Part shown: positions 10,776 to 59,676 of the stretch, in pieces | Layout of the letters: each line of letters starts with the position of its first letter | Position numbering within the stretch: the stretch's first letter is position 1 | Assembly: GCA_000004985.1 (NCBI GenBank) | Contig: GG738848.1 | Origin: Naegleria gruberi | Lineage: Eukaryota | Strand: one strand, 5' to 3' | Length of the DNA: 64,000 nt | Notes under the pieces: model-generated | The model's database searches: none | Told to the model about the DNA's origin: nothing | What the model saw: only the letters and a program-made list of their open reading frames with translations | Made by a program: the position numbers and the translations under genes

Positions 10776-13700
10776 TTATTGAAAGGATCCAAGTTGAATC
10801 TTGTTGTGTTTTTGAACCATTGCATAGAACATGGATGAGTGATCGTTTAATAATTGTGTTGGACTTGCAAATTCTTTCACAATTCCATCATCAATGACCA
10901 CAACTTTATCATAATCCAAAATAGTTTCCAATCGGTGGGCAACACAAATGACAGTACATTTCTGGGAGAATTCATTTCTCAAGACTTGTTGGATTAGTTT
11001 GTCAGTTTCCAAATCGCAGAGAGCTGTGGCTTCGTCCAATACGAGAATTTTACAGTTTCGAATAAGTGCTCTGGCAAGACAGAGTAATTGTCTTGTACCT
11101 GCTGAGATGTTTTCTCCATTTTCTGATATTTCCATTCCTAATCCTGTTGCTCGAGGTTGAATCTCATCACTTTCTTCATTCGAAAGTTGGAATAATTTAT
11201 CTTTCATTCCAACCTTTTCCAATGCATTCCAAAGCTCCCGATCTGTAAATTGTGAATATCCATCAAGATTATCTCTTAATGTTCCTTTAAAGAGTGTTGG
11301 CTGTTGAGGAATGATACACAAGGCACTTCTCAAAGTTTCTAAAGGAACATTTCTAATATCAATTCCATCTACCAAAATGGAAGATTCTGATTCAATTTCT
11401 TGCATTCTGAATAGAGATTGGATTAAACTTGATTTTCCACAACCTGTCCTTCCACAAACAGCAATTCTTTCCTTTTCCTTAATAGTTAAATTAATTCCTT
11501 TAAGAACTAATTTGTTAGTCACTTGATTATTCGACTCTAAACTCTTGTACCTCATTAATACATTGTTGAAATTAATGTTTCCCTCACTCGCAAAGCTTTC
11601 AACTTTTTCACCTACTCCCTCAGGTTCATATTTTTCACTTTCCAAATTTGAATATTGGTCAATTCTTTGAATGGAAACTAAACCATTTTCTATCAATACC
11701 AATAAATAAGACAAGTAATATAAAACATCAAAGTTTGAAGTAGCTTGTAGAATAATCATTCCAACAAGTGGACCTCCAGATGCTAAAACACTTGACATGA
11801 TAATAACCGAAACGGCAAGACCACCCAATATTTCATTTCGAATATCAAAGTATTTGTACATGCACTGAATATTATATCTCACGTGTACGTGGTTATCTGC
11901 CTTAAATTCGAATAAATCTTTCATTAATTCTTCCTTTCCAAATGCACGAATGGTTTGAAGGCCATTAAGAGTTTCGGATATTTGAGAACTGAGTGGAGAT
12001 GAATAAATTCCAGACAATGTTGACAATTCTCTCAATGTAACTCTAAAGTAACTTTGATAATACAAGATTATTGGGAATAAAATAACTAAAATAAATATGG
12101 AAAATGGAGAAAGTATTAAAATGGTAACTAGGCCAAAAATCCAAAACATGAGAACTGGAACAAACTCTCTCAACAATGAATTCAACTCACTATCAATTTG
12201 ATTAGTATCTCTGGTAAATCTTGCAATAATTCTACCCACTGGTGTATTATCAAAAAAGGTAATACAAGAATTAACAATACTGTTCATGAGTTTTTCATGA
12301 AGTTTCTTTGCAGTATTCAAATAATGGGATAGAGCAAGGAAATTACCCATCACATCTACGCATACATAAAGAATAGCACTTCCTAAATAAGTCATTAAAT
12401 AGAAAATTAAAGTGAAATTTTCATATTTCTCATCAGTTGACCATTTGGTAAGGACATATTGATGAACAACATCAAGAATTTTGAATATAATTCCAAGAAT
12501 GCAAATAACTACAAATATTGGCTTGTTATAACCAACAGCAAACTTGAGAAGAGTTTTGTAATTTTCCCAAACTGTTCCCTTCACTCGTTGTTCTTCTTCT
12601 ATGGATGTGAATTTCTCCAATGATTCGTCATCATTTGGAAGTAGTTGAAGAGTTGGCTTGATTTCTTCTTGTTCAGTTTCGAATAAATCTTCTTCGACTT
12701 CTTCCTTCTTTTTACTAAACTCATCAATCAAATTTCTAAATACATTATTGGAATCTTGATAAAGTTCATGATAAGTTCCATTCTGAATGATTTTTCCATC
12801 TTCAAATACAAGAATTCTCTCTGCTTTGTCAATAAAGTGAATTTGATTCGTGACCATAATTGTTGTTTTACCAGCTTCCAAAAGTGGAAGTATTCCAAAT
12901 TTCATAATATGATCTGCAGTGTGAACATCAACTGCTGAGAGAGGATCATCCAATAGATAAACATCTGCGTTCGAATAGAGACATCTTGCTAAGGAAACTC
13001 TCAATTGTTGACCTCCTGACAAGTTGACACCATTTTCACCAATCATACTCAAATCTAAAATTTCTTTTGAGATTTGATAAAGATCAGTTTCTAAATTGCA
13101 TGCGTGTAATACTTTGGAATATCTTTCCGAATTAAATTCTTCACCAAAAGTTATATTTTCACGAATAGTTTGGTTTCTAATCCAAGAATCTTGTGAACAG
13201 TAGGCATATTTGAGTTTAGATTGTTTTTGGAAAGTGGAACAGCCATCATCTATTAGTCTAGTTTCTCCCAATAATGAAGATAAGAAAGATGACTTTCCAG
13301 AACCGACCTTTCCAATAACACAAATAAACTCACTCTTTCTAATTGACAAATTCATTCCTTTCAAACAAGAAACAGGTTCAGTAGAATCAACAGGATCCCA
13401 AGTAAATGAAGCATCTTTCATTTCTGTAATTATTTCATCATTTTCCACTTGGGCAATTTGGTGTGAAACTTCTTCAGCTCTCAGAAACTTGACAATTCTG
13501 TTAAATCCAGTTACTGCTCTTGAAACTTGTAATGCAGATGAAGGAAGTTGAATTGTTTCATATCTTACCAATTCCAAAGCATTAAGGAAGGAGAATGCAA
13601 GACTAACACTCAAAGATTGATTGCTGAAATAACAAAAATGGACGAAACTGACAAATGAAATGAAAGGAGCAAAAGTATTCCACAAGCATTCCATTCCTGC

Positions 13701-14732
13701 GTCTGAAATGAACCCCTTCTTAATATTTCTCATCTCAGTTTCTCTAATATTCATAATCTTGTCTTTAAATAGTTTCTCCATTGTATAATATTTGACAAAT
13801 CTCATAGCAGAAACTAATTGTGAAATAATTTCACTTCTTTCGTCCTGGTTCGACTCTATAATCTTTTCCATTCTCTGCTCCCAAATCATACAAACAATAG
13901 AAATTGGAATAATCACAAGTAAAATGGCAGAGAATCCAACAAGTGCTGAAATTCCTAGAAGAAATATTGAGAAGGAAATGGAAACTGAAATGTAAACAAA
14001 AGCTCCAATGATAATTTCAACATGATAGTAAAACCATTCGAACTTTTCAGTGTCAGTCGTTGCAATATTCATAACCGTTCCAGTTGAGTATTCTTGCTTG
14101 GAGCTAGAGTTTAGTTTAAGTGTCTTGTTGTAAATTGCATTAGAAAGGGAACTCTTTGTAAACTCTCCAATTTCTTGAGCAATGAATAGGCCGTGATCTG
14201 CACAGAATGTTTTCACAACCTTACAAATAAATAGGATTATACAAAAACCAACAATATATGAAACTGATTCAATATTCAAGTCATTATTGGAAAGTGTACT
14301 TTCACAATATATCAAAATAATGTTCAAAATGAATAATCTTGCAACTTCTGAACCAATCAATATCAATTTCAATACAAATGCCCAAGCAATCTGTAAAAAG
14401 TACAACTTGACAAAAAACCAAGCACATTTCCATGTGGAAATTTCAGCTGAATTCTCAAATGTTTCAATAAACTTTTCAAAGGGTTTCGAGCTTGATCTAA
14501 ATCCCCATGATGGCTGCATCTTGGTCAATTCATTCAATTCTAAAAATCCTTTAGAAAAAACCTTCTTAATCATTGGCTGTACTGAACTAAACGTGAATGC
14601 ACTCCATAAATGTCCAATCGAACATCCATTAGAATATGCTGTTTCGTCATATATCGTTTCCTTCCTTCTAAATGTTGAAGAGCATTGGGACATTTCAAGT
14701 TGTTGTTGTGTTTTTTTGATATTTTCATTCAT
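10776..14732 (-). CDS. ABC transporter of the ABCC/MRP subfamily, full transporter with TMD-NBD-TMD-NBD layout.
   Basis: NBD1 has Walker A GKVGSGKSS, signature LSGGQQLRVSLARCLY and Walker B VYLLDDPLSAVD. NBD2 has Walker A GRTGCGKSS, the degenerate ABCC-type signature ISAGTRQLLCLARALIRN and Walker B ILVLDEATALCD. There are two blocks of 5-6 TM helices. The 1318-aa ORF is uninterrupted. Confidence 0.85.
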   Translation of the reverse strand: MNENIKKTQQQLEMSQCSSTFRRKETIYDETAYSNGCSIGHLWSAFTFSSVQPMIKKVFSKGFLELNELTKMQPSWGFRSSSKPFEKFIETFENSAEISTWKCAWFFVKLYFLQIAWAFVLKLILIGSEVARLFILNIILIYCESTLSNNDLNIESVSYIVGFCIILFICKVVKTFCADHGLFIAQEIGEFTKSSLSNAIYNKTLKLNSSSKQEYSTGTVMNIATTDTEKFEWFYYHVEIIIGAFVYISVSISFSIFLLGISALVGFSAILLVIIPISIVCMIWEQRMEKIIESNQDERSEIISQLVSAMRFVKYYTMEKLFKDKIMNIRETEMRNIKKGFISDAGMECLWNTFAPFISFVSFVHFCYFSNQSLSVSLAFSFLNALELVRYETIQLPSSALQVSRAVTGFNRIVKFLRAEEVSHQIAQVENDEIITEMKDASFTWDPVDSTEPVSCLKGMNLSIRKSEFICVIGKVGSGKSSFLSSLLGETRLIDDGCSTFQKQSKLKYAYCSQDSWIRNQTIRENITFGEEFNSERYSKVLHACNLETDLYQISKEILDLSMIGENGVNLSGGQQLRVSLARCLYSNADVYLLDDPLSAVDVHTADHIMKFGILPLLEAGKTTIMVTNQIHFIDKAERILVFEDGKIIQNGTYHELYQDSNNVFRNLIDEFSKKKEEVEEDLFETEQEEIKPTLQLLPNDDESLEKFTSIEEEQRVKGTVWENYKTLLKFAVGYNKPIFVVICILGIIFKILDVVHQYVLTKWSTDEKYENFTLIFYLMTYLGSAILYVCVDVMGNFLALSHYLNTAKKLHEKLMNSIVNSCITFFDNTPVGRIIARFTRDTNQIDSELNSLLREFVPVLMFWIFGLVTILILSPFSIFILVILFPIILYYQSYFRVTLRELSTLSGIYSSPLSSQISETLNGLQTIRAFGKEELMKDLFEFKADNHVHVRYNIQCMYKYFDIRNEILGGLAVSVIIMSSVLASGGPLVGMIILQATSNFDVLYYLSYLLVLIENGLVSIQRIDQYSNLESEKYEPEGVGEKVESFASEGNINFNNVLMRYKSLESNNQVTNKLVLKGINLTIKEKERIAVCGRTGCGKSSLIQSLFRMQEIESESSILVDGIDIRNVPLETLRSALCIIPQQPTLFKGTLRDNLDGYSQFTDRELWNALEKVGMKDKLFQLSNEESDEIQPRATGLGMEISENGENISAGTRQLLCLARALIRNCKILVLDEATALCDLETDKLIQQVLRNEFSQKCTVICVAHRLETILDYDKVVVIDDGIVKEFASPTQLLNDHSSMFYAMVQKHNKIQLGSFQ

Positions 14733-22338: not shown

Positions 22339-24897
22339 ATGACATCCGTCAATAAGAACAAGGCTCTGTTTGAAAAGCTGGATGCCAGCGCAGCCAAAGA
22401 CCAGCACATTTTGAATGGTGGAGCTACAACTACTGTACAAAAGAAACCATCATCAATTTCAACATCCAATAATTCGTCTAGTTTCGGCAAAGCAAAATCA
22501 TCAAATAATAATAATACTAAAACAACCAATAATAATAATACCAAAACGACAAATTCATCATCCACTTCATCATCATCCTTTCTAAACAAGACTAATAGTT
22601 CACCATCATTGAAATCGAATAATAATTCGAATAGTGCTTCAGCAACCAAGACCACACCAACTCCACCTCCTTTCAAACAAACCACCACAACTCCCACTGC
22701 GCCACCAAAAACCAGCACAGTTTCCACCACTTCTGTCAATTCACTCAACAAACTATCAACCAACAGTCAATCAAGTCCAACCTTGAAAAGTACTTCAACC
22801 ACCAGCAGCAGTATTAACAGTCCTAGTGGTAGCACACGTAAAGCACCTCCTCCACCATCATCCTCTTCATCATCAGCATCATCAACTTCTCCTAAACTGC
22901 CATCAACACCAAGTACGTCAGCCATCAAAAAAACATCAAACACTCCAAGTACTCCAAGCACACCAATTTCTGCACTTGTGGACAATGATTACTTTAGTTC
23001 AATTACTAAAGATGTTCCAAAGAGTGAAATTAAAATATCTGGTCCTAAAGGATTGACACACGTTGGTCATGCCTCAACTAATGATCCAACTGCATTGTTT
23101 AAGAAAAATGCTCGATCTCAAACGATTACTGGTGGAGAACTTTCGAATAGTTCAACAAAGAAGAGGGATGGAGTGAGTTTTGATGTTCCTGTAAGTGAAA
23201 AGAGTGAAAAGAAGGATGGAGAAGCATCTGGTTCGAGTGCTAAACAAGTTTTGAATCAGGCAACTGATAAATTGAAAAGTGGAATGTCCAAGATGACCAA
23301 TTTGGTCAAGACTACTTGGGCTGCTGTTGGAAATGATAGTCCATCTACTCCAACCAGTAGCTCCAGCTCTAGTGGTAGTAGCTTAACAAGTTCTAAGAAA
23401 TCAAAGCCAAAGAAATTGCCACCAGTTCCAAAACCTGCAAATTCAGTTCGTGTTGCAAATACCAAAGTTGTGAGTATTTACATTCCAGAGAATGATGCTT
23501 CCGAACATGATCGTGAATTGGAAAAGACCAGAACTGAATTGGAAAAGAGAAAGACCATGATGAACGAGAAAATTAAGGAAGAGGAAAAGAAGAAATTAGC
23601 AGAAATGAAACAAAATATTCTCCAAGAGGAGCAAGCCAAGAAGAAACAATTGGAAGAAACATTACAAAAGGAAGAACGTGCCAAATTGGAAAAACTTGAA
23701 AAGGAACTAGCCAGTTTATCAGACCAAAAGAGAGAAGAACAACTTAAACAATTGAGAAATGAAGAAGCCAGAAGAAAGGAGAAAATGCTCTCTGATTTGG
23801 ACAGAGATGCCAAGACTAAGATTAAGGAAATCGATAGTCAAGTTCGTGCTGAAAAAGAAGATCGTTTGAGACAACTCGAAGAGGAAATGAGAAAAGAAGA
23901 AGCTCTTGCCAGAAAGGACATTGAAAAGAAATTCAAGGAAGAGGAATTGAAAAAGAAACAAGAACTTCAAGCCAAGATTGAAAAGGAAGAAAAGGAAATG
24001 TTGCAACGTATTCAAAAGAAACTCCAGGAAGAGGAAGAAAGAAAACTCAAAGAGCTCGCTCGTAAAATGGAAGAAGAAGAACAGCAACGATTGGAAAAGA
24101 TTAAAGCCAACTTGAAAGAGATTGAAAATGCTAAAAAGCAAACACCTCAACATCAAGAAGTTTCACAATTGAGAAGAAAGTCAGTCACTGCTCGTCTCAT
24201 GCAGGAAGAAGAAGAAAAGATCAAACAATTAAGTCAACAAATTAAACAAGAAGAAATGAAACGAATTGAAGAATTGGAAAAGAAGATGAAACAAGAAGAA
24301 CAAGAAAGAAAGCAAAGAATGAAACAAGAACTCGAACGTCTCGAAGACGAACAACGTCAACTCTTAATGCAACAATTGGAAGAAGAGAAACGAAAGCTCC
24401 AAGAAAAATTCCAAAAGGAAGCCGAAAAGGAAGCTGAGGAACACCGAAAGAAACTCCTAGCTCAAAATTCTGCAATCATTTCGAATAATGTTTCAGTTCC
24501 ACCACCTCCTCCATCTTCTTCATCATCAGGTTCTATTCCTCCACCTCCAGGTGGTAGCTCTCTTCCACCTCCACCTCCAACTGCCATTCTTCCTGTCTCT
24601 ACTCCAAAAATTGAAATTCACATTGATTTACCAGAACTCTCTGGAAGAGGTGACTTGTTAGAAAGTATCAGAAAGGGAGCTAGTTTAAAGAAAGTCACTA
24701 CAGAACAAATCAGCAAACCTCAATCCTCAGGAAATGCCATCACTAACATGCTCAAAAAAGCCCTCGACCAAAAACGAATTCACATGGCAGACGAAAGTGA
24801 TGAAGAAGAAAGTGAAGACGAAGATGATGAATGGGATTCAGAAGCTCACAATTTAATTGAATCTAAAAAGAAATCATTAGTCAACTCTGATGAATAA
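22339..24897 (+). CDS. WASP-family actin nucleation-promoting factor-like protein with CRIB-like motif, long E/K-rich coiled coil, poly-Pro, WH2 and acidic Trp-containing tail. No WH1 domain is evident.
   Basis: The 852-aa ORF starts with an S/T/N-rich low-complexity N-terminus. The CRIB-like motif is IKISGPKGLTHVGHAS. A coiled-coil region of about 400 aa is rich in E, K, R and Q. The poly-Pro block is PPPPPSSSSSGSIPPPPGGSSLPPPPP. The WH2 motif is GRGDLLESIRKGASLKKV. The acidic tail with a conserved Trp is DESDEEESEDEDDEWDSE, an Arp2/3-binding A-region signature. Confidence 0.55.
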   Translation: MTSVNKNKALFEKLDASAAKDQHILNGGATTTVQKKPSSISTSNNSSSFGKAKSSNNNNTKTTNNNNTKTTNSSSTSSSSFLNKTNSSPSLKSNNNSNSASATKTTPTPPPFKQTTTTPTAPPKTSTVSTTSVNSLNKLSTNSQSSPTLKSTSTTSSSINSPSGSTRKAPPPPSSSSSSASSTSPKLPSTPSTSAIKKTSNTPSTPSTPISALVDNDYFSSITKDVPKSEIKISGPKGLTHVGHASTNDPTALFKKNARSQTITGGELSNSSTKKRDGVSFDVPVSEKSEKKDGEASGSSAKQVLNQATDKLKSGMSKMTNLVKTTWAAVGNDSPSTPTSSSSSSGSSLTSSKKSKPKKLPPVPKPANSVRVANTKVVSIYIPENDASEHDRELEKTRTELEKRKTMMNEKIKEEEKKKLAEMKQNILQEEQAKKKQLEETLQKEERAKLEKLEKELASLSDQKREEQLKQLRNEEARRKEKMLSDLDRDAKTKIKEIDSQVRAEKEDRLRQLEEEMRKEEALARKDIEKKFKEEELKKKQELQAKIEKEEKEMLQRIQKKLQEEEERKLKELARKMEEEEQQRLEKIKANLKEIENAKKQTPQHQEVSQLRRKSVTARLMQEEEEKIKQLSQQIKQEEMKRIEELEKKMKQEEQERKQRMKQELERLEDEQRQLLMQQLEEEKRKLQEKFQKEAEKEAEEHRKKLLAQNSAIISNNVSVPPPPPSSSSSGSIPPPPGGSSLPPPPPTAILPVSTPKIEIHIDLPELSGRGDLLESIRKGASLKKVTTEQISKPQSSGNAITNMLKKALDQKRIHMADESDEEESEDEDDEWDSEAHNLIESKKKSLVNSDE

Positions 24898-27817: not shown

Positions 27818-30800
27818 TCAAAGTCTTATTTTATCTTCGTTTTCTTCAGTTTCTTGTTGTTCTATAGCTTGTTGGTCATCAACTGGTGGATATGTTTCTT
27901 CCTTTCTATCCATGAAGAATGCCCTAGTACTGCCCATCAGGTTCAAACTATTACGAAGAGATGCATTGTGCATATTTTCAGCTCTCATTCTGGTAGATCT
28001 AAATGATGCGAACTTGGAGTTTGATTCTGGTTGACTTGTGGCTGATTGTACTTGTGTTAGTTGTTGTAAATGTTTGAAAACTTCAACTTCTACTGGATTT
28101 TCATGATCTACATTATGAATTACAGACCCTCCAAAACTGACATGAGCATTAGAATCTGCACCTTCCTCTTGATGAGGGAAAATTTCAAGTGGATCAACGT
28201 GATGTTTCTTCTTGAGTAAGTAGGTCTGGCAAAGTCCTTTTCCTTTCACATCAATTTTCCGTTCCTCAAATTCCATTCCCAAATCGTGAACTCTTTCATA
28301 GGTAGTTCTAGAAATTTGGATACGACCTGGTTCTCCTGTTGATTCCATTCTTGAGGCAGTATTGATGGTATCTCCCCACAAGTCGTAGGCAAACTTTTTG
28401 ATTCCAATCACACCAGCAACAACTGGTCCTGTATGTAGGCCGACACGAATGTTTACATTGGTATTCTCGCTGCAATTGTATTCCTTGATTACCTGAAGTG
28501 TATCAATGGCGAATCTCAATGACCTTTCAGGGTGATCTGATTGAGCATTCAAATCAATACCTCCAACACAAAAGTAAGCATCTCCAATGGTTTTAATCTT
28601 TTCCAAATTATACTTTTCAGTGAGCAAATCAAATCCATTCACAATAGCATTCAACATTAATACAAGTTCAGATGGATTCATTCCAGAACTAATTCTTGTA
28701 AACCCAACCATGTCAGAGAAGAATACAGTTACATCATTGAATTTTTCAGCAATGAATGTCTCTCCTCCCTTCAATTTGGAAGCAACACTCTCTGGCATGA
28801 TATTCAACAATAACTGTTCAGATTTCTTCTTCTCTTCAGCTAGTAACATGTTTTGCTTCTTCTCAGGTGTGAAATCCTTGATGAAACAACTAATAACTGG
28901 CTTCTTGTTGAAAATACTAACAAACAAATTGACTTTGGAAGGGAATTTGGTTCCATTCTTTCTGTAGCATTCCAATTCAAGAGTTTCACCAAAAGGTTGT
29001 GTTGCATTGACCATTTGTTGAATAATGGTTTCCAAACGTTGTCTATTATTATCGGAAGGATCGAATAGCTTGGTGAGCTTTTCTCCTAAAACATCACTAT
29101 TAGTCATGCCAAACATCTTTTGAGCAACTGGATTGAAAAGTTCAATGTCACCTTGTGAGTTACACAAAATGGCTCCATCAACTGCTGCATTCAAAATGGC
29201 TCTCACCTTACCGTCTCCACCACTACCTTCTTCTTCGTTGGTTTGTTTCTTTGATATTCTTAATTTGCTTGGAAGATTATTGAAAAGAGCAAATTGTTTC
29301 AACTCTTCATTGGATTCCATAGCCTCAATTGGAAGGTAGTTGAGTAAACTTCTTAATTGGTTGGATTGATCCCAAATATTTTGAATTAAACCATATGTCA
29401 AATATCCTAAAATTGCTAAAATAATAAATCCAAAAACAGAAAATAGGATGGTAATGATGAGATTTGGAACTGACATTGATGATGAATAGAAAGTAAACAA
29501 GTTCAAGAATTTTTGCAACAAAATATTGCACTTGTCATCTGTAGTAAGCATTGTCTTGTAAAGGTCAATCAACTTGTAATTACTAAAGTAAACATCCTCT
29601 GAAAATGTATTACTAGCCGTAGAGAAATCAACAATTAAATCATTAATACTACTACAAGAGTAATAGGTGGTATTAGTACAGTTGGTACTTTCAAGAATAG
29701 CCGTAACTTCAGTGCTTGATGACGTAAATGAAGATTCATATTGTAAATTATTCCAATAACTTGCAAGTGATCCCGTCAGTGCCTTATTCTCATCATGGAA
29801 AGAGTCAATTTCTGAAGATGTTATCAGCCTGGGGTCATTGATACTGGAAATGTCTGCATATCTCTTGGCAATAAAAATCTCCGAAAGTCTAAATGTTATA
29901 GAGACAGAGGTGGTCATAATTTTAACACCACTTTCAATATTCTCGAGTGCAAGTATTGCTTTTTGGGAGTCTAATTGAAAATCCAAGAAAAGCATAGACA
30001 TGCAGCATACTGTCAAGAAAATAGTCGCAACAATCAAGAAGGAAACTGAAAATTGAGGTCTTTCAAATAATGTAGGATCTTTCACATCAATATCTTCACC
30101 ACTCTTTGATTCCAAGTGGTGATAGATTTTTCCAATATAGTCCTTTGTGATTGATCTTGACATGAACTTGATTGTTGACTTAATTTGTCTCAATTTAAAC
30201 GTAGAGAATGCCACAAAAACAATTGCAATAATACCATAAACAGATATCGAAATAGCATAAAAGTAAATAAACTGCTCTTGCAACATTGTGTACTGTTCCT
30301 TATTTCTTTGTAAAAATAATTCACACATGTTTGAAAAACTAGCGGTTTGAACTTTTCTATTCTTCCAGAAAAACATAAAGTTAGAAGCAGTTGTTGTGTT
30401 TGAATATGATGTCATGTCCATTGCCAAATATTCATTGGTGTTTTTGATTATAATATCATTGATTTCTGAAAGGGAGGCATTTCTCTTTTGATTGAAAGAG
30501 TCTGCACTTGTAAAGTTGTTATCATAGTAAACAACTGGTAAATAAAGATCATGAGTAGAACTGGTAAAATCAGATAGCATTCCTTTTGTGAATTTTGATG
30601 CTGATTTCTTGAGAGATTGAAGAACTGTTACATATGTTCTAACTCTTGCCTTGTGTGCTGCAAAATAGCTTGTTGTACTGTTGGATCCATTGACCATAGT
30701 TGCAGCAATATCGTTACTGTACAATGGAAACATCTTGTTAAAGTTTTGAATCATTCTAATCTCTTTTAACATGTATCTTGGGAAGAATTGTGGAATGCAA

Positions 30801-33067
30801 ACATAATGTGCAACTGCCACATTATTATCAATTTGAATAGAGAAACTCACACCGAGACCAATTGCAACAGTCAAAATACTCAATGAAAAGCAAAAGATAA
30901 AGCCAAAGAAGTACATCAAAATGTTTGATCCCTTTGTTCTATTGAGGGCGGATCTTATTTGCAACTCCTTCTTGATAATTGATGAACGATTTTCTACTCC
31001 ATCAAACTCAGACGACTCTGAAACAGACTTTTCATCAAAGTTGAACTTGTTATTTTTCGATTCAACATTTGGCATGTATGGCAGGACCTTATTTCCTTTG
31101 ACAACTGGTTTCTTGTGGGAAACTTTACGAGTTTCCTCATCCTCAATAGTTGCTGCCTCGTCATACATTTCATTGGCTCTTTCTTTGTCAAATTTAATTT
31201 CTTCCAAAAACTTGGCATATGTTCTTAAAACATTCTTATTGTTACCATAATTTGACATTAAATTGGTTAGCACAAGGGTACATTGTTTTGTGAGTGATGT
31301 GATTTGACTGTTCAATGAGTCAATCTTGTCTACGGATACTGATTCACTCATCATTTCCTTCCAAAATGATTTGTGTAAAGAGCTGATAATAGCATGCTTC
31401 TTTTCAATTTTCTGAATGATATGTTTGACTTCTAATAGCTTTTTACCATCTTCTAGAGATATCTCCAACTCTTTTGTTCTGAGACTGATGGAAAATCTTT
31501 GAATCAGATTTGGTAAGTTTTTAGTGGCCTTCTCCAAAAGTTTCAATCCAGCACTTTGTTGACCTTCAATAAAGTTTCCTGTAATCACAGCAGCAATTAC
31601 TAAAAGGTCAATATTCTGATAAGTTTTCTGACTAGCAACTCCTTTGATAAAGCATTTGGCCATTTCAATTTCTGTCAAATTACCAATTGATAAACCTTCC
31701 TTTGCAGTCTTGACACAAAATTTCAAGAAGAGAAACAATCTTCTAGTCTTTTTTGTTTCCTCAATTTCATGTAAAATGTTGAGCGCTTGTCTCTCAAGAA
31801 TATACTTGGGATTAATAAAATCCAAATTGTCACTCTTAATTAGAGAATCAAGACCCTTCTCCAAGTGATCGAGAAATACTGCCTTGATATCTTTCATAAT
31901 CATTCGAGTGTACATCTCTAATGAAATACTTCCAACTGCAAAGAAGACAATCATTACAAAGAAGGTTATTCCCATCAATCCTAAACCAAGTCCAAACTCA
32001 TTCTCTTTGTTTACATAGACAGATACCACTCCACACAAGGAAGAACCAACTGCAGCACACATAAAACCAAAGTAAACTGAATTCTCCCATCTTGTATAGA
32101 ATGGAATAAAGTACAGAAAAGATGCAGCAAGAATAAATCTTGTTAGAAAGTAATAAACTGCTTGAATGACAATGTAATCGTCTGAAACCAAGCATGTAAA
32201 AATGTAAAAACTTGTTGAAGCAAGAAAGTTGAAGAATAAAAAGTGCAAATCGTACGAAGCAAATGGTGTCTTACTTTTAGCATGTACATCCATCAATGTG
32301 TGGGTTCCAACAAATAATGAAAGTGGCACTGCAAACACTGACATAATTCCAAGAACCATCATGGCAATATTACCACTTCCGTAACAATATACATCTGGGT
32401 ATCTCTGTAAAACTTGATGTGGTGTCAAAGCTGGTGCAACAATCACCGATGATGCATAGTTACAATCGAGGAAACCCAACAAGAGCCAACTAATTGGCAT
32501 AGATAGTAGACACGTTGTTGCAATAATTATCTGCGTGGCAATCTTTATCTTTGGCCAATATTTGCTCATTGTATAGACTGACCTATAGGCCAATGCCAAA
32601 GTAATAACCGAAACAATAAGAAACGCAAAGAAAACCGAAGCAATAATTAAGGCTGGTATATATGGAACATTTTCCAATCCAAATGTCATTGGATAATTGA
32701 GTGCTCTAGCTATCCATTTACCATATTCTCCATAGTTATAGTCTGGTTGTATTCCAATGAATAGTCCTATCCAAATAATGTACAAGTGCACGCACAACAT
32801 GACGATTTTGTCTTTCCTTGAGATACATTCTGTCGAGTCGTGCAAACTCATCAACAAAGTTATCAGAGATTCTTCAACTTTTGCCATGAAGGTCATATTA
32901 TTAAATTCAGTGTCCAAATCAGTTACTGAAACAACAGATTCAGAGCCAGAACCTGCAAACTTTGGTGGGCCTGCATTACTCCCCACCGAAAATCTTCTTG
33001 CACGTGTATCATATTGAGAGGGATTGCCCATACTGATGGCATCGTCTGTAATGTTGAGATTATTCAT
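27818..33067 (-). CDS. Polytopic class III nucleotide cyclase with 6 TM, a cytoplasmic region, 6 TM, a PAS/PAC domain and a cyclase homology domain. Adenylyl-type by the Lys in KIKTIGD.
   Basis: The 1749-aa ORF is uninterrupted. Two clusters of about 6 hydrophobic helices are present. The PAS/PAC segment is [38 protein letters not shown]...[21 protein letters not shown]. The cyclase domain is [16 protein letters not shown]...[15 protein letters not shown]...[36 protein letters not shown]. Confidence 0.8.
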   Translation of the reverse strand: [1749 protein letters not shown]

Positions 33068-38010: not shown

Positions 38011-40134
38011 TTATGTCACATTAAAGATATGAACTTTTTTCTTGGAATAATCAGCAACGTAAAGCTCATTATTCACTTCATTCATACACATTCCATAAGG
38101 TCCTTGTAAATGTTCACTTTTGAAACTATGTAAATATCCGCCACTTTCGTCAAATAATTCGATTCTCTTATTGGACGAATCACAAATCAATAATTGTCTA
38201 GAAACCTTATCATACAACAGTCCTCTCACAAAATTGAATTCCCCAATTGAGCTACCACTCTTTCCAAATGAATATTTCAACTCGGCTTGATAATTATTCT
38301 TGAAATTGACTCCAGTTGCAAGTGGAGATTCTGGTGTGATGGAAAGTTTAAAGATTTGAATCTTATTCGAACCTGTTTCACTCACTATTAAATCACCATT
38401 CAGTGTCATGTCTATTCCCCATGGAGAGCTAAAGTTTATACCACAAGTTGATTGATCGAGTCTGTGAATTGGTTGACCAGTTTGTGAATTCAACAAGTGA
38501 ATGCAATTATTATTGTAATCACATACAAATAGCAGTTTGGAATTTTTACAAAATGTCATTCCACTTGGATAGGAAATTATTCCACTTGATTGTTTCCATT
38601 CGTAAAATTGAGATTGTTTGTCAATGATTGAAATTTTCAATAATTGTTCCAAATTGAACTTGTAAACTGAACGATCGTTGGATCCAATGAAGATGCTCGT
38701 TCTAGATGATGCAGAGGAAGGACTCTTTGGAGAGGAAACTGCATCACCTCTTATATCTTCCTCAATAATATACAAACAATGAGGTCTGAAGAAGGTCTTG
38801 ATGGATCCTTTAAATTTCTTTGTTTTCAAATCGTAAACCATTATTCTACTATTGAAATAGTCGCTCACTAAGAGAACATTTAAGAGGTGAGAGATTTTGA
38901 CATCGTATGGATTGGAGAGATTGTTCTTTTCATTTTCTTGTTGTTCCAGAGAGTGAGAATAAGCGATTGTTCGAGGAATGACTCTTCTCTTCATGATATT
39001 CGAAACAGAAGAGAAATGCTCCAACTCTGTTCGAATTTCCTCGACAATTTCACTCAAATCCATGAGTTGATTCTCATATAAATCTGAAATGTCAGTAAAC
39101 TGAAACAACAACTTGATTTTCTCAAATTCTTGAAGCGTTTTGTAATATTTTCGGTGTTTCCTTTCCAATAATTCATATCCTGACATGTCTGATAAACTAG
39201 CAAACTCCAAATACAACAATTTCACATCCTTCTTCAATGTTGCAATTTCTCTGACTATCATTTCGTATTCCAAACATTTCTTCTCAATGCTTTCGTTCAA
39301 TTTCTCTTGTTTCTCCCTCACTACTCTTTGTACATTCTCATAAAATTCATTCGATTGCTGTTTCATCCTCAATTTCATTTTAGAAATCTTGTTTAAATAG
39401 AATTGACATTGATCATTCGTCTTGTTTGGTTCCAAACCATGCATACTCTCCCATTCATTCACACTATTTTCCAATTCACTCAATTCTTGTGTCATTTTCA
39501 ATTTTTCTTCAGCTTCTATATTCTCAATTAGGAAAATATCATGTCCCTTATGCGAATCAACAGAACAAGCAGCACAAATTAATGATTGGCAAGTTTTGCA
39601 GACAGTATTGATAGCTACTGAGTGGAGAATACATTTGGGAGGTTTCTTTCGGGCAGAAAGTGGTGAGGGTTGATGCTGAGAGGGCGAAATTGTATTTAAA
39701 CTCAAGGGAGAAACTAAACTATTCTGAACCGAATCATGAGGAAAGATGTGATGATGTGAGCACTTCTTTAAATGTGTTTTTGTATGGAATTTACATAGAT
39801 ACAAATCACATTCCTTGCAAAAACAAGTTGATTCTTGATATTCTTCTGCTTTCTTCCAACATTTCGAACAAGGTTGAATTTTATAATAAACTCCATTCGA
39901 AACTAAAGATGACGGTGATGATTTAGGAGTTTTAGGTGAGGATTCGGTACTGCCAACAAGAGAAGATGAGGTCGTGTTGCTACTAGCACCACTTGAGGAA
40001 CGAGAATGAATCATGAACTTTTTTTTTATGAAGTTTTTATTAGAGTTGATTGTTGACATGTGTGTTGCATTTGGAAACAAGAAGAGAATGAGGAAACTTT
40101 CTTTCTTGAAACCATGTATGATTCGATTTTTCAA
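38011..40134 (-). CDS. TRIM-like protein with two B-box zinc fingers, a coiled coil and NHL repeats. No RING finger.
   Basis: B-box-like zinc fingers are CSKCWKKAEEYQESTCFCKECDLYLCKFHTKTH and CILHSVAINTVCKTCQSLICAACSVDSHKGHD. A heptad-rich region of about 200 aa follows. At least five NHL-type repeats are present (LLVSDYFNSRIMVYDL, LLFVCDYNNNCIHLLN, DLIVSETGSNKIQIFKL, QLLICDSSNKRIELFD, ELYVADYSKKKVHIFNV). The likely start is an internal ATG (MSTINS or MIHSRSS). Confidence 0.65.
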   Translation of the reverse strand: MKNRIIHGFKKESFLILFLFPNATHMSTINSNKNFIKKKFMIHSRSSSGASSNTTSSSLVGSTESSPKTPKSSPSSLVSNGVYYKIQPCSKCWKKAEEYQESTCFCKECDLYLCKFHTKTHLKKCSHHHIFPHDSVQNSLVSPLSLNTISPSQHQPSPLSARKKPPKCILHSVAINTVCKTCQSLICAACSVDSHKGHDIFLIENIEAEEKLKMTQELSELENSVNEWESMHGLEPNKTNDQCQFYLNKISKMKLRMKQQSNEFYENVQRVVREKQEKLNESIEKKCLEYEMIVREIATLKKDVKLLYLEFASLSDMSGYELLERKHRKYYKTLQEFEKIKLLFQFTDISDLYENQLMDLSEIVEEIRTELEHFSSVSNIMKRRVIPRTIAYSHSLEQQENEKNNLSNPYDVKISHLLNVLLVSDYFNSRIMVYDLKTKKFKGSIKTFFRPHCLYIIEEDIRGDAVSSPKSPSSASSRTSIFIGSNDRSVYKFNLEQLLKISIIDKQSQFYEWKQSSGIISYPSGMTFCKNSKLLFVCDYNNNCIHLLNSQTGQPIHRLDQSTCGINFSSPWGIDMTLNGDLIVSETGSNKIQIFKLSITPESPLATGVNFKNNYQAELKYSFGKSGSSIGEFNFVRGLLYDKVSRQLLICDSSNKRIELFDESGGYLHSFKSEHLQGPYGMCMNEVNNELYVADYSKKKVHIFNVT

Positions 40135-57894: not shown

Positions 57895-59676
57895 TTGCAC
57901 CAATTTTATTTTAACCTTAAAAAAATGTCTATAAGCTCATCGTCAAGAATCACAGATTACTTCATCAATCCTCCTAAGGAAACACCTCCTAAGGCAGAGG
58001 AGAGCGTAATAAAGTACCCGTCTCTCGGTTGTGCTGGAGTGCTTAGTTCTGCTACAGTAGGAAGTGTAGCAACACAATTGTCACAACCTATGTTCCTTAA
58101 CAATTTCGGAATTAATGTTGATGCAGCACTAACTGATGATAAAGGAGAAAGAAACGAAGCAGAAAGAAATTTAGAGAAGGTGTTTTCACAGGACATTATT
58201 GATGACGCTTTGTTTAAAATAACACAAAGAAAATCTAATATTAAGGTTGGAGAAAACCACTCATGTGCTCTTGTTAATTGTAATTTGTTTTTGTCTATTA
58301 GATTTACAGATATGAAAGTGGATATGAACGGAAAAGAGTTAATACTTAAAGCTTCAGATGACGTTACTCACCACTCCAAATTCTCTAATCAAAGAGAAGA
58401 AGAAAAAGCCTCTTTTGATCTAACAGACGACGAGAAATCCTTCAATCTTTTATTGTATTACATGCAAAGTGTGTTGAGGGACACGTTGAAACCAGATTAT
58501 TACGTTATGCTTAATCAATGTAAATTTGTTACGGACCTTTTTGGCAAAAACATTGTTGAGATGTTCAGAGCAGAATCCAAAGAAATGAGGGAGGATTTTT
58601 TTGCAGATTTGTAAGTAGCTAATTAACTGGTTCAATGTTAATATTTCATAGTTTGAAAGTTATTATGCTGTCTCAAAGGCAATGCTTAGTGTTGATGGAG
58701 CAACTTGAAAAGAAAACAGGTTATATTTATCCCATTAAGGCTCCAAGTATGGGGAATGCTGGCGATTTTTACAGACTTTCAATGACAACAGTTCTCCCTT
58801 CGGAATTATTTTACTTTCTATTATTCGAATTGCAAATTACAAATCCAACTTTCACACAATTCAAATTGGCATCAATCATCCAACAGTTAAAAAACAAAAA
58901 GACCGATGTAAAGGCAGTCATAGATAACAAAAAGAGCGTTTCTGATGAAAATATACGTCTCATGGACAATCGTTACAAAAGTCTTGAACAAAAACTAACA
59001 ATACTAGAAAGCTTTTACCCAGAATTCTTAAGAGATCAAAATATTGTTATAGATAACACTGCATGCTGTTCAGCCATCGATAAACTCCAAGCAGGAATTG
59101 CTATTAAAGGAAGCATAATTTCTAATGAAAAAGATGTTAGAAGTCTTTTTTTGGATTGTCAAATTATTTCTAAATATGTAATTGAACTCACTAAGAGAGT
59201 GTTAAGAGAATTAGGAGTTGATATGAGTCTTATTATCACTAACACCGGAAAGGAGTTGAGTGATATAGACATTGACAACCATTTTGATTGTCTAAATATT
59301 AGATTCAAAAGAATGGTAAGTATCAAAACGACTTGAAGTTAAATCATATTGTAGCCAACAAACAGAAATAACAGATCTCGTGTCTTCATTGTTGAGAAAT
59401 ATTTGAATGATAAATGGTCCAAAACTCATATAATCAAACACTATGATGACAAAGATTACTTTGACAACGAAACTTATAGCAACCCTTTAGTTCTTAATAA
59501 GCATCACCGTGACCAAGTCCCTAACCTTTTTGTAGCAATTATGCCATTTATTGTTCATGATCATTCATATTGTACCCAAGAAAACATGCTTAAGATACTG
59601 TACTCTGCATCTCTATGTCTCTCAAAAACTCACAAGATGAAACATGTTCACGGAGACATAAAACCTGATCATATTT
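57895..59676 (+). CDS. Multi-exon gene ending in a protein-kinase catalytic domain. Partial, because the 3' end runs into the assembly gap.
   Basis: Exon 1 is 57895..58610. The ORF-track stop TAA is actually part of a GTAAGT donor. Intron 58611..58651 is 41 nt with acceptor tcatAG. Exon 2 is 58652..59315, with a GTAAGT donor right after ...FKRM. Intron 59316..59354 is 39 nt with acceptor ttgtAG. Exon 3 is 59355..59676+ and encodes RVFIVEKYLNDKWSKT (subdomain V-like) ... KMKHVHGDIKPDHI (catalytic loop HxDxKxxN-like). All junctions were checked in frame. Confidence 0.45.

What the first reader, a model, noticed from the sequence alone, without database searches (positions are those of the whole stretch)
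27818..33067. A 12-TM nucleotide cyclase carries an internal PAS/PAC sensor and a single catalytic domain
The topology is 6 TM, a cytoplasmic region, 6 TM, PAS/PAC and one class III cyclase domain, all in a single 1749-aa exon. It resembles neither the metazoan tmAC layout of 2x6 TM with two catalytic domains nor simple receptor cyclases. A single catalytic domain implies a homodimer. The PAS domain directly upstream of the catalytic domain suggests gas, redox or small-ligand regulation. The substrate-defining residue is Lys (EKIKTIGD), predicting adenylyl specificity.
Basis: partly seen in the sequence, partly recalled or inferred. Interest (0 to 1): 0.6.

Follow-up and report, generated by a model that had tools for sequence, protein, structure and literature searches.

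The report
Naegleria TmcB-PAS receptor adenylyl cyclase
This is a real, already annotated but unstudied Naegleria gruberi gene for a membrane adenylyl cyclase that joins a 12-helix TmcB-family membrane module, with two outward-facing helical-bundle domains, to a PAS domain and one intact catalytic domain; it belongs to a gene family found across heterolobosean amoebae and is not a one-off.

Summary
The 1749-aa ORF (27818-33067, minus strand) is real and identical to N. gruberi XP_002682184.1 / NAEGRDRAFT_46042, annotated "predicted protein". One class III cyclase domain, one PAS domain and the Lys in EKIKTIGD are confirmed. All eight canonical catalytic residues are present, with the Lys/Asp adenylyl signature, so a homodimeric adenylyl cyclase is the best reading.

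The PAS domain lacks the heme-ligand His and the LOV Cys, so a gas or redox role has no support. It sits exactly 54 residues from the first metal Asp in every member in which the spacing could be read, through a conserved S-helix/CTE.

The same architecture occurs in at least 7 further N. gruberi proteins and in N. fowleri, N. lovaniensis, Willaertia and Pharyngomonas. The membrane module alone occurs in dictyostelids, chytrids and Cyanophora.

Verdict: an undescribed variant of receptor-type class III cyclase, of moderate interest.

The parts
27818..33067 (-). Complete single-exon gene, 1749 codons plus stop (NAEGRDRAFT_46042).
   Evidence: ORF listing. 100% identity and 100% coverage to the NCBI model.
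32819..33067 (-). N-terminal cytosolic tail, aa 1-83. It has no signal peptide and contains an RRFS motif (aa 24-27).
   Evidence: Hydrophilic, 8 K+R. Poorly conserved, 18%.
31913..32818 (-). Compact 8-TM bundle, aa 84-385. TM1 84-106, TM2 136-166, TM3 171-200, TM4 231-258, TM5 275-293, TM6 296-320, TM7 326-352, TM8 358-385+. It has an extracellular beta-hairpin (aa 202-220) flanked by conserved C202 and C228, and a conserved cytoplasmic PFxRRxENS turn (P322, N329).
31103..31912 (-). Cytoplasmic extension of TM8 plus an all-helical repeat domain, aa 386-655. It includes TPR_TmcB (PF25474) at aa 543-647.
   Evidence: Pfam E 8.3e-21, 74.6 bits against a cut-off of 27. AF2 predicts helices 420-650. 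The TM8-to-TM9 cytosolic region (aa 379-719) holds 54 K+R.
30932..31102 (-). Disordered acidic/basic linker, aa 656-712.
   Evidence: AF2 pLDDT below 50 for model residues 597-632.
30206..30925 (-). Sensor unit A, aa 715-954: TM9, helical ectodomain A (739-935) and TM10. The TM helices continue outward into the bundle. C757 and C915 are conserved in at least 90% of members; N863 (NAS) is invariant only in the four-sequence alignment; five N-x-S/T sequons in total.
30047..30205 (-). Cytoplasmic loop, aa 955-1007, with the conserved KDxxGKIYHxLExK helix (K975, G979).
   Evidence: 10 K+R in 55 aa. AF2 helix 975-988. Conservation.
29399..30046 (-). Sensor unit B, aa 1008-1223: TM11, helical-bundle ectodomain B (1029-1202, four main helices plus one short helix) and TM12. 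It carries a conserved NCT...C motif (N1129, N1132, C1138 invariant).
   Evidence: Weak collinear profile similarity to unit A (hhalign probability 37%, E 3.5e-4).
29216..29398 (-). Juxtamembrane segment and tether, aa 1224-1284. It has the conserved LRxLLNYLPxExxxSNEELKxFxLF motif, then a low-complexity stretch of variable length.
   Evidence: AF2 shows the TM12 helix running to about aa 1244. The distance from LNYxP to VDG varies from 46 to 65 aa among paralogues.
28868..29215 (-). PAS domain, aa 1285-1400, ending in the DxT motif (D1398, T1400).
   Evidence: PAS_9 E 3.4e-16; PAS E 2e-09. TIGR00229 E 2.4e-11. Closest solved relatives are FixL/DosP, but the heme His is replaced by L1345.
28751..28867 (-). 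Signalling helix plus cyclase transducer element (CTE), aa 1401-1439: EKKQNMLLAEEKKKSEQLLLNIMPESVASKLKGGETFI. The family consensus is NILP, matching the NxLP core of CTE_2.
   Evidence: It aligns to the helical region preceding C2 of AC9 and AC8. It is 65% identical across the family. CTE literature: PMC5995499, PMC9552081.
28208..28750 (-). Class IIIa cyclase homology domain, aa 1440-1620. Catalytic residues are D1452, K1492, D1496, R1541, D1562, N1569, R1573, K1610.
   Evidence: Guanylate_cyc E 2.8e-56. PDB alignments to AC9 C1/C2. Residue table: 21 of 28 family representatives share DKDRDNRK.
27821..28207 (-). Non-conserved, low-complexity C-terminal tail, aa 1621-1749.
   Evidence: Absent or unalignable in homologues.

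Best explanation
The gene encodes a receptor-type, homodimeric class IIIa adenylyl cyclase built on a TmcB-family membrane module.

What the data show:
- One polypeptide carries, in order: an 8-TM bundle; a cytoplasmic TPR_TmcB repeat domain; two tandem TM-helical ectodomain-TM units; a juxtamembrane helix and tether; a PAS domain; a fixed-length signalling helix with a cyclase transducer element (CTE); and one catalytic domain with the complete set of metal, substrate (Lys/Asp = ATP), transition-state and phosphate-binding residues.

What I infer:
- Two protomers (24 TM helices in all) pair their catalytic domains head to tail and form two symmetric active sites, as in Rv1625c/Cya.
- The PAS domain and the S-helix/CTE form the dimeric coiled-coil lever that sets the geometry of the catalytic dimer, as in sGC, bPAC and phytochrome-cyclase fusions.
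- The primary signal is extracellular. It is received by the two bacterial-sensor-like helical-bundle ectodomains, which may pack as an intramolecular pseudo-dimer. It then passes through TM12 and the conserved juxtamembrane motif to the PAS domain.
- Divergence of the ectodomains among at least 8 N. gruberi family members would give the amoeba a panel of chemoreceptors that write directly into cAMP.
- The roles of the 8-TM bundle and the TPR domain are unknown. They are probably a scaffold or a second input, because they are the part shared with the cyclase-less TmcB proteins of other eukaryotes.
For: - Domain content and order come (29/30, 28/30 and 28/30 family members hit PAS_9, Guanylate_cyc and TPR_TmcB).
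- Catalytic residues D1452, K1492, D1496, R1541, D1562, N1569, R1573 and K1610 were read from the AC9 C1/C2 alignments and tabulated across the family. By E-value the closest single-domain solved homologues are bacterial homodimeric adenylate cyclases (4p2f, 176 bits; 7yzi); I take these to be Rv1625c and M. intracellulare Cya from memory.
- The 8+4 topology with the N terminus inside follows from hydropathy and AF2 (pLDDT 87 and 94.7). It also fits the positive-inside K+R counts, the enrichment and conservation of N-glycosylation sequons in the two big loops, and conserved Cys residues in predicted outside segments: C202/C228, C757/C915 and C1138.
- Coupling: the DxT-to-metal-Asp spacing is exactly 54 residues in all 28 members in which the pattern reached the metal Asp; the five other values (47, 53) are early regex stops in that output. 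The S-helix/CTE is 65% identical across the family.
- The conservation gradient fits a receptor family: cyclase 64%, CTE 65%, PAS 38%, 8-TM block 25%, TPR 28%, ectodomains 20%.
- Family distribution is given.
Against: - No biochemical data exist for any member; a literature search on the locus identifiers found nothing.
- The TM12-to-PAS connection is not a rigid helix. Its second half is low-complexity and the whole varies from 46 to 65 residues among paralogues, which weakens a simple piston model from the ectodomain to the PAS domain.
- No Pfam sensor family (4HB_MCP, TarH, NIT, HBM, CHASE, Cache) hits the ectodomains in this protein at E<=1 or in 30 relatives at E<=0.01.
- The dimer could not be modelled with the tools available.
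- The 8-TM bundle is more conserved than the ectodomains and exists without any cyclase in other phyla. It may therefore have an autonomous, for example transport, function.
Confidence: 0.55

Rival explanations
1. The PAS domain is itself the primary sensor of a cytosolic signal such as gas, redox state or a small ligand. The membrane module would then only anchor or localise the enzyme.
For: - The PAS domain lies directly upstream of, and is rigidly coupled to, the catalytic domain.
- The link to the membrane is a flexible tether of variable length.
- The closest solved PAS relatives are the O2-sensing FixL and DosP.
- Some PAS residues beyond the structural core are at least 90% conserved: E1364, R1369, F1375.
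Against: - The heme-ligating His is replaced by Leu here and is Ile/Leu/Val in the 17 of 18 relatives with a residue at that column (one gap). This PAS domain has no His.
- The LOV Cys motif is absent (read from the sequence).
- No cofactor-specific Pfam or NCBIfam model reaches its cut-off.
- It does not explain why 1200 residues of conserved membrane module with ectodomains are kept in every paralogue.
Confidence: 0.2
2. The TmcB module is a transporter, channel or 'transceptor', and the cyclase reports on or is gated by its activity. This would parallel the ciliate and apicomplexan P4-ATPase-guanylyl cyclases and the Paramecium ion-channel-type adenylyl cyclase.
For: - The 8-TM bundle is compact, confidently predicted (pTM 0.90) and more conserved than the ectodomains.
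- The module exists as a free-standing protein in dictyostelids, chytrids and Cyanophora, which suggests an autonomous function.
- There is precedent for large polytopic modules fused to protist cyclases (PMC13466520, listed; the Paramecium case is from my own knowledge).
Against: - No transporter Pfam family is hit.
- The nearly invariant residues found in the 8-TM block all lie in loops (G113, L220, N233, P322, N329). Polar residues within the helices were not examined.
Confidence: 0.15
3. The membrane module is mainly a targeting or scaffolding device, for example to the flagellum or a membrane subdomain. The cyclase would be regulated by partners that bind the TPR domain or by phosphorylation.
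For: - A 'tiny macrocysts protein B-related' protein is listed in the Chlamydomonas cilia methylome table (PMC11244166).
- TPR-like repeats are typical protein-protein interaction modules.
- An RRFS PKA-type consensus site lies in the N-terminal tail (read from the sequence).
Against: - Two elaborate, glycosylation-sequon-bearing, Cys-conserving ectodomains are not needed for targeting.
- Their fast divergence among paralogues looks like ligand diversification.
Confidence: 0.08
4. The protein is a catalytically dead pseudo-cyclase or a guanylyl cyclase.
For: A few family members do carry substitutions, for example Acrasis P0109 (RKDCDEVH) and N. gruberi P0085 (DKSRDNLK).
Against: This protein has all eight canonical residues, including both metal Asp and the Lys/Asp adenine pair. 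The Glu/Cys guanylyl pattern is seen only in the unrelated Volvox cyclase.
Confidence: 0.02

Closest known systems
Mycobacterial Rv1625c / Cya (6-TM, single-domain class IIIa adenylyl cyclase; PDB 4p2f, 7yzi; PMC9433096)
   Same: - One catalytic domain carries all the metal, substrate, transition-state and phosphate-binding residues, so it is a homodimer with two active sites.
- It is membrane-anchored, with a helical/CTE element before the catalytic core.
- These entries (adenylate cyclases 4p2f, 7yzi) are the best single-domain solved matches by E-value (176 bits); assigning them to Rv1625c and Cya is my own knowledge.
   Different: - 6 TM helices per protomer against 12 here.
- No ectodomains, no TPR domain and no PAS domain.
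- The membrane modules share no detectable sequence or fold similarity.
Metazoan membrane adenylyl cyclases AC1-AC9 (2x6 TM, C1+C2)
   Same: - Class IIIa catalytic fold.
- NxLP-type CTE_2 before the catalytic domain.
- Highest total PDB scores: AC9 E 2.4e-67, matching both C1 and C2.
   Different: - One catalytic domain instead of two complementary ones.
- An 8+4 TM layout instead of 6+6.
- The intervening cytoplasmic region is a TPR_TmcB repeat domain, not C1.
TmcB/TmcC 'tiny macrocysts' family of multi-pass membrane proteins (Pfam PF25474 TPR_TmcB): dictyostelids, chytrids, Cyanophora, Chlamydomonas
   Same: - TPR_TmcB hit well above threshold.
- Collinear homology of the 8-TM block plus TPR region to the Heterostelium, Cavenderia, Geranomyces and Fimicolochytrium proteins.
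- The same hydropathy layout: about 6-8 clustered TM helices, a long gap, then 3-5 widely spaced TM helices.
   Different: - In the dictyostelid proteins the last hydropathy peak lies about 40 residues from the C terminus; the chytrid, Cyanophora and Logan proteins keep longer tails, but none has a cyclase hit. Here and in other Heterolobosea a PAS-CTE-cyclase cassette is appended.
- The ectodomain sequences are too diverged for HMM detection outside Heterolobosea.
- No molecular function is known for TmcB (my own knowledge; the literature search was uninformative).
Bacterial four-helix-bundle (4HB) periplasmic sensor domains of chemoreceptors and histidine kinases (Tar/Tsr, PcaY_PP, Adeh_2942, TorS, NarX-type), and the engineered Tsr/Tar-cyclase chimeras
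   Same: - A helical bundle formed by outward extensions of two flanking TM helices.
- The output enzyme is reached through a cytoplasmic signalling helix.
   Different: - No sequence-level membership in any Pfam sensor family.
- Two bundles in tandem within one chain rather than one per protomer.
- The protein is eukaryotic, and the bundles are embedded in a 12-TM protein.
Soluble guanylyl cyclase and other PAS-coiled coil-cyclase enzymes (sGC H-NOX-PAS-CC-CHD; cyanobacterial CyaB1; LOV/BLUF cyclases)
   Same: - A PAS domain leads through a fixed-length coiled-coil/CTE to the class III catalytic domain.
- Three family members give weak HNOBA hits.
- In sGC the PAS domain acts as a transducer and dimerisation module rather than binding a cofactor.
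   Different: - Homodimeric and ATP-specific here.
- Membrane-integral.
- No H-NOX, GAF, LOV or BLUF input domain.
Heme-PAS oxygen sensors FixL and DosP
   Same: They are the closest solved PAS sequences (E 7.6e-08 to 1e-05).
   Different: The proximal His ligand is replaced by Leu here and by Ile/Leu/Val in the 17 of 18 relatives with a residue there, and this PAS domain contains no His.

Membership tests
Class III (IIIa) nucleotidyl cyclase, catalytically competent | Guanylate_cyc (PF00211) domain above the gathering score | tested here: met
   190.4 bits against a cut-off of 21.9, covering aa 1440-1619 and profile positions 3-182 of 183.
Class III (IIIa) nucleotidyl cyclase, catalytically competent | Two metal-binding Asp residues | tested here: met
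   D1452 (FFSDMVGF) and D1496 (IGDAYF) align to the AC9 C1 Asp pair.
Class III (IIIa) nucleotidyl cyclase, catalytically competent | Transition-state Asn/Arg pair and phosphate-binding Arg and Lys | tested here: met
   N1569 and R1573 (INTASRM), R1541 (NIRVG) and K1610 (VKGKG).
Class III (IIIa) nucleotidyl cyclase, catalytically competent | Cyclase transducer element preceding the catalytic core | tested here: met
   LLLNIMPESVASKL aligns to the pre-C2 helix of AC9 and AC8. The family consensus NILP matches the NxLP core of CTE_2.
Class III (IIIa) nucleotidyl cyclase, catalytically competent | Measured cyclase activity and a dimeric quaternary structure | not testable with these tools
   This needs an enzyme assay, SEC-MALS or cryo-EM. 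The structure tool predicts single chains only.
Adenylyl (not guanylyl) specificity | Lys plus Asp at the purine-selecting positions (Glu plus Cys/Ser in guanylyl cyclases) | tested here: met
   K1492 and D1562. The Volvox cyclase P0006 in the same alignment has E and C.
Metazoan-type tmAC | Two complementary catalytic domains (C1, C2) in one chain | tested here: not met
   There is a single Guanylate_cyc stretch even at E<=1, and region 386-712 is all-helical TPR.
Metazoan-type tmAC | Two hexahelical membrane domains | tested here: not met
   The layout is 8 + 4 TM helices.
PAS domain | PAS-fold profile hit above the gathering score | tested here: met
   PAS_9 59.8 bits (cut-off 27); PAS 37.9 bits (cut-off 22.6); TIGR00229 43.9 bits (cut-off 22.9).
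Heme-binding PAS (FixL/DosP type) | Proximal His ligand on the F-alpha helix | tested here: not met
   BjFixL His200 aligns to L1345. That column is Ile/Leu/Val in 17 of 18 relatives (one gap), and this PAS domain has no His.
LOV (flavin) PAS | GxNCRFLQ motif with the adduct-forming Cys | tested here: not met
   The equivalent stretch reads GEKLTKLF (read directly from the translation).
TmcB/TmcC family | TPR_TmcB (PF25474) domain | tested here: met
   74.6 bits against a cut-off of 27. 28 of 30 relatives also hit it.
TmcB/TmcC family | Homologous N-terminal multi-TM block collinear with the TPR domain | tested here: met
   phmmer stretches cover query positions 161-592 (Heterostelium, E 8e-15), 46-593 (Cavenderia, E 3e-10) and 72-585 (Geranomyces).
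TmcB/TmcC family | C-terminal 4 TM helices with two large loops, homologous to those of dictyostelid TmcB | tested here: inconclusive
   The hydropathy layout is shared. Family HMMs of the two units do not detect the dictyostelid, chytrid or Cyanophora proteins.
4HB_MCP / TarH-type sensor domain | Sequence-profile membership in a Pfam sensor family | tested here: not met
   No such family is hit at E<=1 in this protein or at E<=0.01 in 30 relatives.
4HB_MCP / TarH-type sensor domain | Up-down four-helix bundle continuous with two flanking TM helices on the extracytoplasmic side | tested here: met
4HB_MCP / TarH-type sensor domain | Ligand binding | not testable with these tools
   This needs binding assays.

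The most novel reading that the evidence does not exclude
The TmcB family is an unrecognised class of eukaryotic 12-TM surface receptors. It combines a membrane bundle of novel fold with two prokaryote-style four-helix-bundle ligand-binding ectodomains, arranged as an intramolecular pseudo-dimer. The heterolobosean fusion to PAS-CTE-cyclase acts as a 'Rosetta stone' that reveals the family's signalling nature. It would then assign a sensory function to the orphan TmcB/TmcC proteins of Dictyostelium (sexual macrocyst development), chytrids, glaucophytes and green-algal cilia. It would also provide a natural example of the proposal that cyclase membrane domains are receptors (PMC4821796, PMC11606603).
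Probability: 0.3. Interest if true: 0.65.

Novelty: new variant of a known kind. Interest (0 to 1): 0.45.

Why it matters
- What the large membrane domains of adenylyl cyclases do is an acknowledged open question (PMC12414865; the receptor hypothesis is in PMC4821796 and PMC11606603).
- Here the membrane part is not a plain 6-TM anchor. It is a 1200-residue module with recognisable sensor-like ectodomains, wired through PAS and a CTE to a canonical catalytic domain. That makes it a tractable natural system for transmembrane control of a class III cyclase.
- It gives the first functional hint for the orphan TmcB family. Its 8-TM bundle has no solved structural relative.
- The family also occurs in several copies in the brain-eating amoeba N. 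fowleri, where surface receptors that write into cAMP could bear on environmental sensing.
- The catalytic and PAS parts themselves are conventional, and the gene is already in public annotation.

Tried and rejected
- Foldseek against the PDB with the whole module gave nothing at E<0.1, only importin and talin-like helical repeats.
- phmmer of the membrane halves against PDB sequences found nothing below E 0.2.
- BLASTP of unit A against unit B found no significant internal repeat. The profile-profile comparison was only suggestive.
- Literature searches were unproductive. 'TmcB' returns unrelated acronyms. 'Tiny macrocysts' returns one cilia-proteome table entry. The locus tag and accessions give zero papers. 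The Naegleria genome paper and the differentiation paper are not held. The Naegleria pangenome paper only counts cyclases, and the Acrasis genome paper only notes that cyclase domains are abundant and discusses one other adenylate cyclase.
- I considered a cryptic degenerate C1 domain in the 379-719 region and rejected it. There is no Pfam hit at E<=1, and AF2 predicts an all-helical TPR.
- I considered a heme or LOV PAS domain and rejected it on the key residues.
- I considered a guanylyl cyclase or a pseudo-cyclase and rejected both.
- The regex spacings of 47 and 53 are artefacts: the pattern stopped at an earlier 'CF' before the metal Asp. They are not real length variants.
Full report
**Observation**

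The window is Naegleria gruberi DNA of about 34% GC. The flagged interval is a single open reading frame, 27818..33067 on the minus strand, of 1749 codons. Its translation is 100% identical over its full length to the public model XP_002682184.1 / EFC49440.1 / UniProt D2V1B3 (NAEGRDRAFT_46042). That model is annotated only as 'predicted protein' and lies on a 712,659-bp scaffold. By my own estimate, an open frame of this length in AT-rich DNA has a chance probability below 1e-50. The gene is therefore real and already annotated. No paper in the held library mentions its identifiers.

**Domains**

- Pfam finds exactly one Guanylate_cyc domain (aa 1440-1619, E 2.8e-56).
- It finds one PAS fold (PAS_9 aa 1297-1400, E 3.4e-16; PAS aa 1287-1398, E 2e-09).
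- NCBIfam agrees on the PAS 'S-box'.
- No second cyclase domain appears even at E<=1.

**Catalytic domain**

phmmer against PDB sequences aligns the domain to both C1 and C2 of AC9 and AC8. By E-value, the best single-domain matches are bacterial adenylate cyclases (4p2f, 176 bits; 7yzi), which I take from memory to be the homodimeric Rv1625c and M. intracellulare Cya.

From those alignments and a family alignment, every canonical residue is present in the one domain:
- metal-binding D1452 and D1496;
- purine-selecting K1492 and D1562, the adenylyl pair;
- phosphate-binding R1541 and K1610;
- transition-state N1569 and R1573.

Twenty-one of 28 family representatives share this DKDRDNRK pattern. 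An unrelated Volvox cyclase in the same alignment shows the guanylyl pair Glu/Cys.

The segment before the domain reads ...SEQLLLNIMPESVASKLKGGE. It aligns to the helix preceding C2 in AC9 and AC8. It matches the NxLP core of the cyclase transducer element CTE_2 (PMC9552081; CTE concept in PMC5995499).

**Topology**

The '6 TM - loop - 6 TM' description is not borne out. Three lines of evidence agree on the following layout: Kyte-Doolittle hydropathy on this protein, hydropathy averaged over 54 homologues, and AlphaFold2 models built on those alignments. The models are aa 60-1250 (pLDDT 87, pTM 0.65) and aa 75-395 (pLDDT 94.7, pTM 0.90).

- Eight closely packed TM helices span aa 84-385.
- TM8 runs on into a cytoplasmic all-helical repeat domain (to about aa 650, containing TPR_TmcB).
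- A disordered linker follows (656-691).
- Then come only four TM helices (about 715-738, 936-954, 1008-1028, 1203-1223).
- These four each extend as long helices into two large loops (739-935 and 1029-1202).

With the N terminus inside, several features fit:
- K+R counts follow the positive-inside rule.
- The two large loops carry N-x-S/T sequons at a higher density than the cytosolic regions (5 and 2; N863, N1129 and N1132 invariant among the four close homologues).
- Conserved Cys residues fall in predicted outside segments: C202/C228 flanking a beta-hairpin, C757/C915 (at least 90% conserved in 30 sequences), and C1138 (invariant).

The total of 12 TM helices is right, but the layout is 8 + (1+1) + (1+1) with two ectodomains.

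**What the membrane module resembles**

- Foldseek against the PDB finds nothing at E<0.1 for the whole module.
- phmmer finds no solved sequence relative.

Even so, the context is the same as in bacterial sensors: a helical bundle made from outward extensions of two flanking TM helices on the extracytoplasmic side. A profile-profile comparison of the two TM-ectodomain-TM units gives a weak, collinear match (probability 37%, E 3.5e-4). That hints at an internal duplication but does not prove it.

**PAS domain**

Its closest solved relatives are the heme-PAS domains of FixL and DosP (E 7.6e-08 to 1e-05). However, the proximal His (BjFixL His200) aligns to L1345. That column is Ile/Leu/Val in the 17 of 18 full-length relatives that have a residue there (one has a gap), and this PAS domain has no His at all. 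The LOV motif is also absent (GEKLTKLF in place of GRNCRFLQ). The conserved PAS residues are the generic structural ones (VDG, N..A...FG, RKNG..F, DxT). A gas or redox sensor is therefore unsupported, though a small-molecule ligand cannot be excluded.

The coupling to the catalytic domain stands out. The distance from the PAS DxT motif to the first metal Asp is exactly 54 residues in all 28 members in which the pattern reached the metal Asp. The five other values are early regex stops in that output. The intervening S-helix/CTE is 65% identical across the family. By contrast, the TM12-to-PAS connection has a conserved juxtamembrane motif (LRxLLNYLPxExxxSNEELKxFxLF) followed by a low-complexity stretch, and the whole varies from 46 to 65 residues.

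**Family and distribution**

An exhaustive HMMER search with the membrane module (aa 60-1250) found 165 representatives at 50% identity.
- About 35 of the long representatives have the same complete architecture. In a Pfam scan of 30, 29 hit PAS_9, 28 hit Guanylate_cyc and 28 hit TPR_TmcB.
- Named members come from N. gruberi. At least seven further proteins were identified: D2VY33, D2VSW1, D2W3W6, D2UX70, D2VQM4 and D2UYX7, plus the partial model EFC36143, which lacks the cassette.
- Other members come from N. fowleri (at least 7 loci), N. lovaniensis, Willaertia magna and Pharyngomonas kirbyi. An Acrasis kona protein keeps the TPR and a degenerate cyclase domain but gave no PAS hit. The architecture is thus found across several heterolobosean lineages.
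- The membrane module without a cyclase occurs in dictyostelids (Heterostelium, Cavenderia; UniRef name 'TmcB/TmcC TPR repeats domain-containing protein'), chytrid fungi (Geranomyces, Fimicolochytrium) and the glaucophyte Cyanophora. In Cyanophora, PAS domains follow the TPR.
- Those proteins share a similar hydropathy layout: about 6-8 clustered TM helices, then 3-5 widely spaced ones. In the two dictyostelid proteins the last peak lies about 40 residues from the C terminus.
- A 'tiny macrocysts protein B-related' protein is listed in a Chlamydomonas cilia methylome table (PMC11244166).
- From my own knowledge, TmcB is named after a Dictyostelium mutant phenotype and has no known molecular function.

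Among 18 full-length family members, mean pairwise identity is 64% in the cyclase, 65% in the CTE, 38% in PAS, 25% in the 8-TM block, 28% in the TPR region and 20% in each ectodomain. This gradient, with a conserved output and fast-evolving outward-facing domains, is typical of receptor families.

**Mechanism**

Shown by the data:
- the domain order;
- an intact adenylyl-type active-site complement in a single domain;
- a fixed-length PAS-to-catalytic linker containing a CTE;
- a confidently predicted 8+4 TM topology with two helical ectodomains.

Inferred:
- The protein homodimerises through the PAS domain, the S-helix and the catalytic domains, forming two symmetric active sites.
- Extracellular ligands bind the helical-bundle ectodomains, possibly packed as an intramolecular pseudo-dimer.
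- The conformational change passes through TM12 and the juxtamembrane helix to the PAS domain, and through the S-helix/CTE to the catalytic dimer.

I put about 0.85 on 'active homodimeric adenylyl cyclase' and about 0.45 on 'the ectodomains are the primary sensors', giving 0.55 for the combined statement.

Rivals:
- The PAS domain is the primary cytosolic sensor (0.2). The flexible TM12-PAS tether favours this; the missing cofactor residues argue against it.
- The TmcB module is a transporter or transceptor coupled to the cyclase, by analogy with the P4-ATPase-guanylyl cyclases (0.15). There is no fold or family support.
- The module is purely for targeting or scaffolding (0.08).
- The protein is a pseudo-cyclase or a guanylyl cyclase (0.02).

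**Comparison and novelty**

The protein works like a receptor-type class III cyclase, and its catalytic half passes every sequence test for an active class IIIa adenylyl cyclase. It is not a metazoan-type tmAC, because it has one catalytic domain and no 6+6 layout. It is not an Rv1625c-type enzyme, because the membrane module is different. Its PAS domain is not a FixL or LOV type.

On the membrane side it is a member of the TmcB family, with the TPR_TmcB domain and the 8-TM block both meeting the test. The combination of a TmcB module, PAS, a CTE and a cyclase is visible in automatic database annotations, but I found no description of it in the literature. I rate it a new variant of a known kind and of moderate interest (0.45).

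Its value lies in two points. It is a natural test case for the idea that cyclase membrane domains are receptors (PMC4821796, PMC11606603, PMC12414865). It is also a functional clue for the orphan TmcB family and its structurally unmatched 8-TM bundle.

Noticed in passing
window 51700-54013 (+): A second, unrelated receptor-type cyclase gene lies here. ORF 51700-53394 encodes an N-terminal TM helix, a dCache_1 domain (aa 208-304), a second TM helix and the start of a Guanylate_cyc domain ending at ...DKFIGDA. The rest of the catalytic domain (RIGIHSG..., GDGANLASRLEG...) continues in ORF 53342-54013 in another frame. This implies a short intron near 53336-53390.
   Followed up: partly
window ~60001-62000 (inside the mechanical 'ORF' 59622-63218): The GC fraction is 0.000 in this 2-kb bin, which I take to be a run of N (an assembly gap; I did not read the sequence). 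The flanking 62001-64000 bin has abnormal composition (GC 0.22, GC skew +0.43). The 1198-aa ORF listed there would then be an artefact.
   Followed up: no
window 32987-32998 (-), aa 24-27 of the cyclase: An RRFS motif, a PKA-type R-R-x-S consensus, lies in the cytosolic N-terminal tail. Similar basic-x-S motifs occur at the aligned position in two close homologues. This may be a site for cAMP/PKA feedback; it has not been tested.
   Followed up: no
P0155 (Cyanophora paradoxa, 2176 aa) and P0154 (Logan assembly, 1913 aa): These TmcB-family proteins lack a cyclase but have one or more PAS domains inserted directly after the TPR_TmcB domain, before the last four TM helices. The module has therefore associated with PAS domains in a different position in a distant lineage.
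   Followed up: partly
P0004 (N. gruberi EFC36143, 1084 aa, 'partial'): This close paralogue (43% identity) has a gene model that lacks the TPR region and the whole PAS-cyclase cassette. It is probably a truncated or mis-spliced model on a short scaffold rather than a real cyclase-less form.
   Followed up: no
window 10776-14732 (-): A 1318-aa ORF encodes a full-length ABC transporter, with two ABC_membrane and two ABC_tran stretches.
   Followed up: no
window 38011-40134 (-): A 707-aa ORF carries a B-box zinc finger and NHL repeats. This is a TRIM-NHL-like architecture, which is unusual outside animals.
   Followed up: no
window 22339-24897 (+): An 852-aa ORF carries a C-terminal WH2 actin-binding motif. 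It lies in a region of strong AT skew (+0.18 to +0.26).
   Followed up: no
window 30206-30925 and 29399-30046 (-): The two TM-ectodomain-TM units give a weak, collinear profile-profile match (hhalign probability 37%, E 3.5e-4). This hints that the 4-TM half arose by tandem duplication of a two-TM sensor unit.
   Followed up: partly
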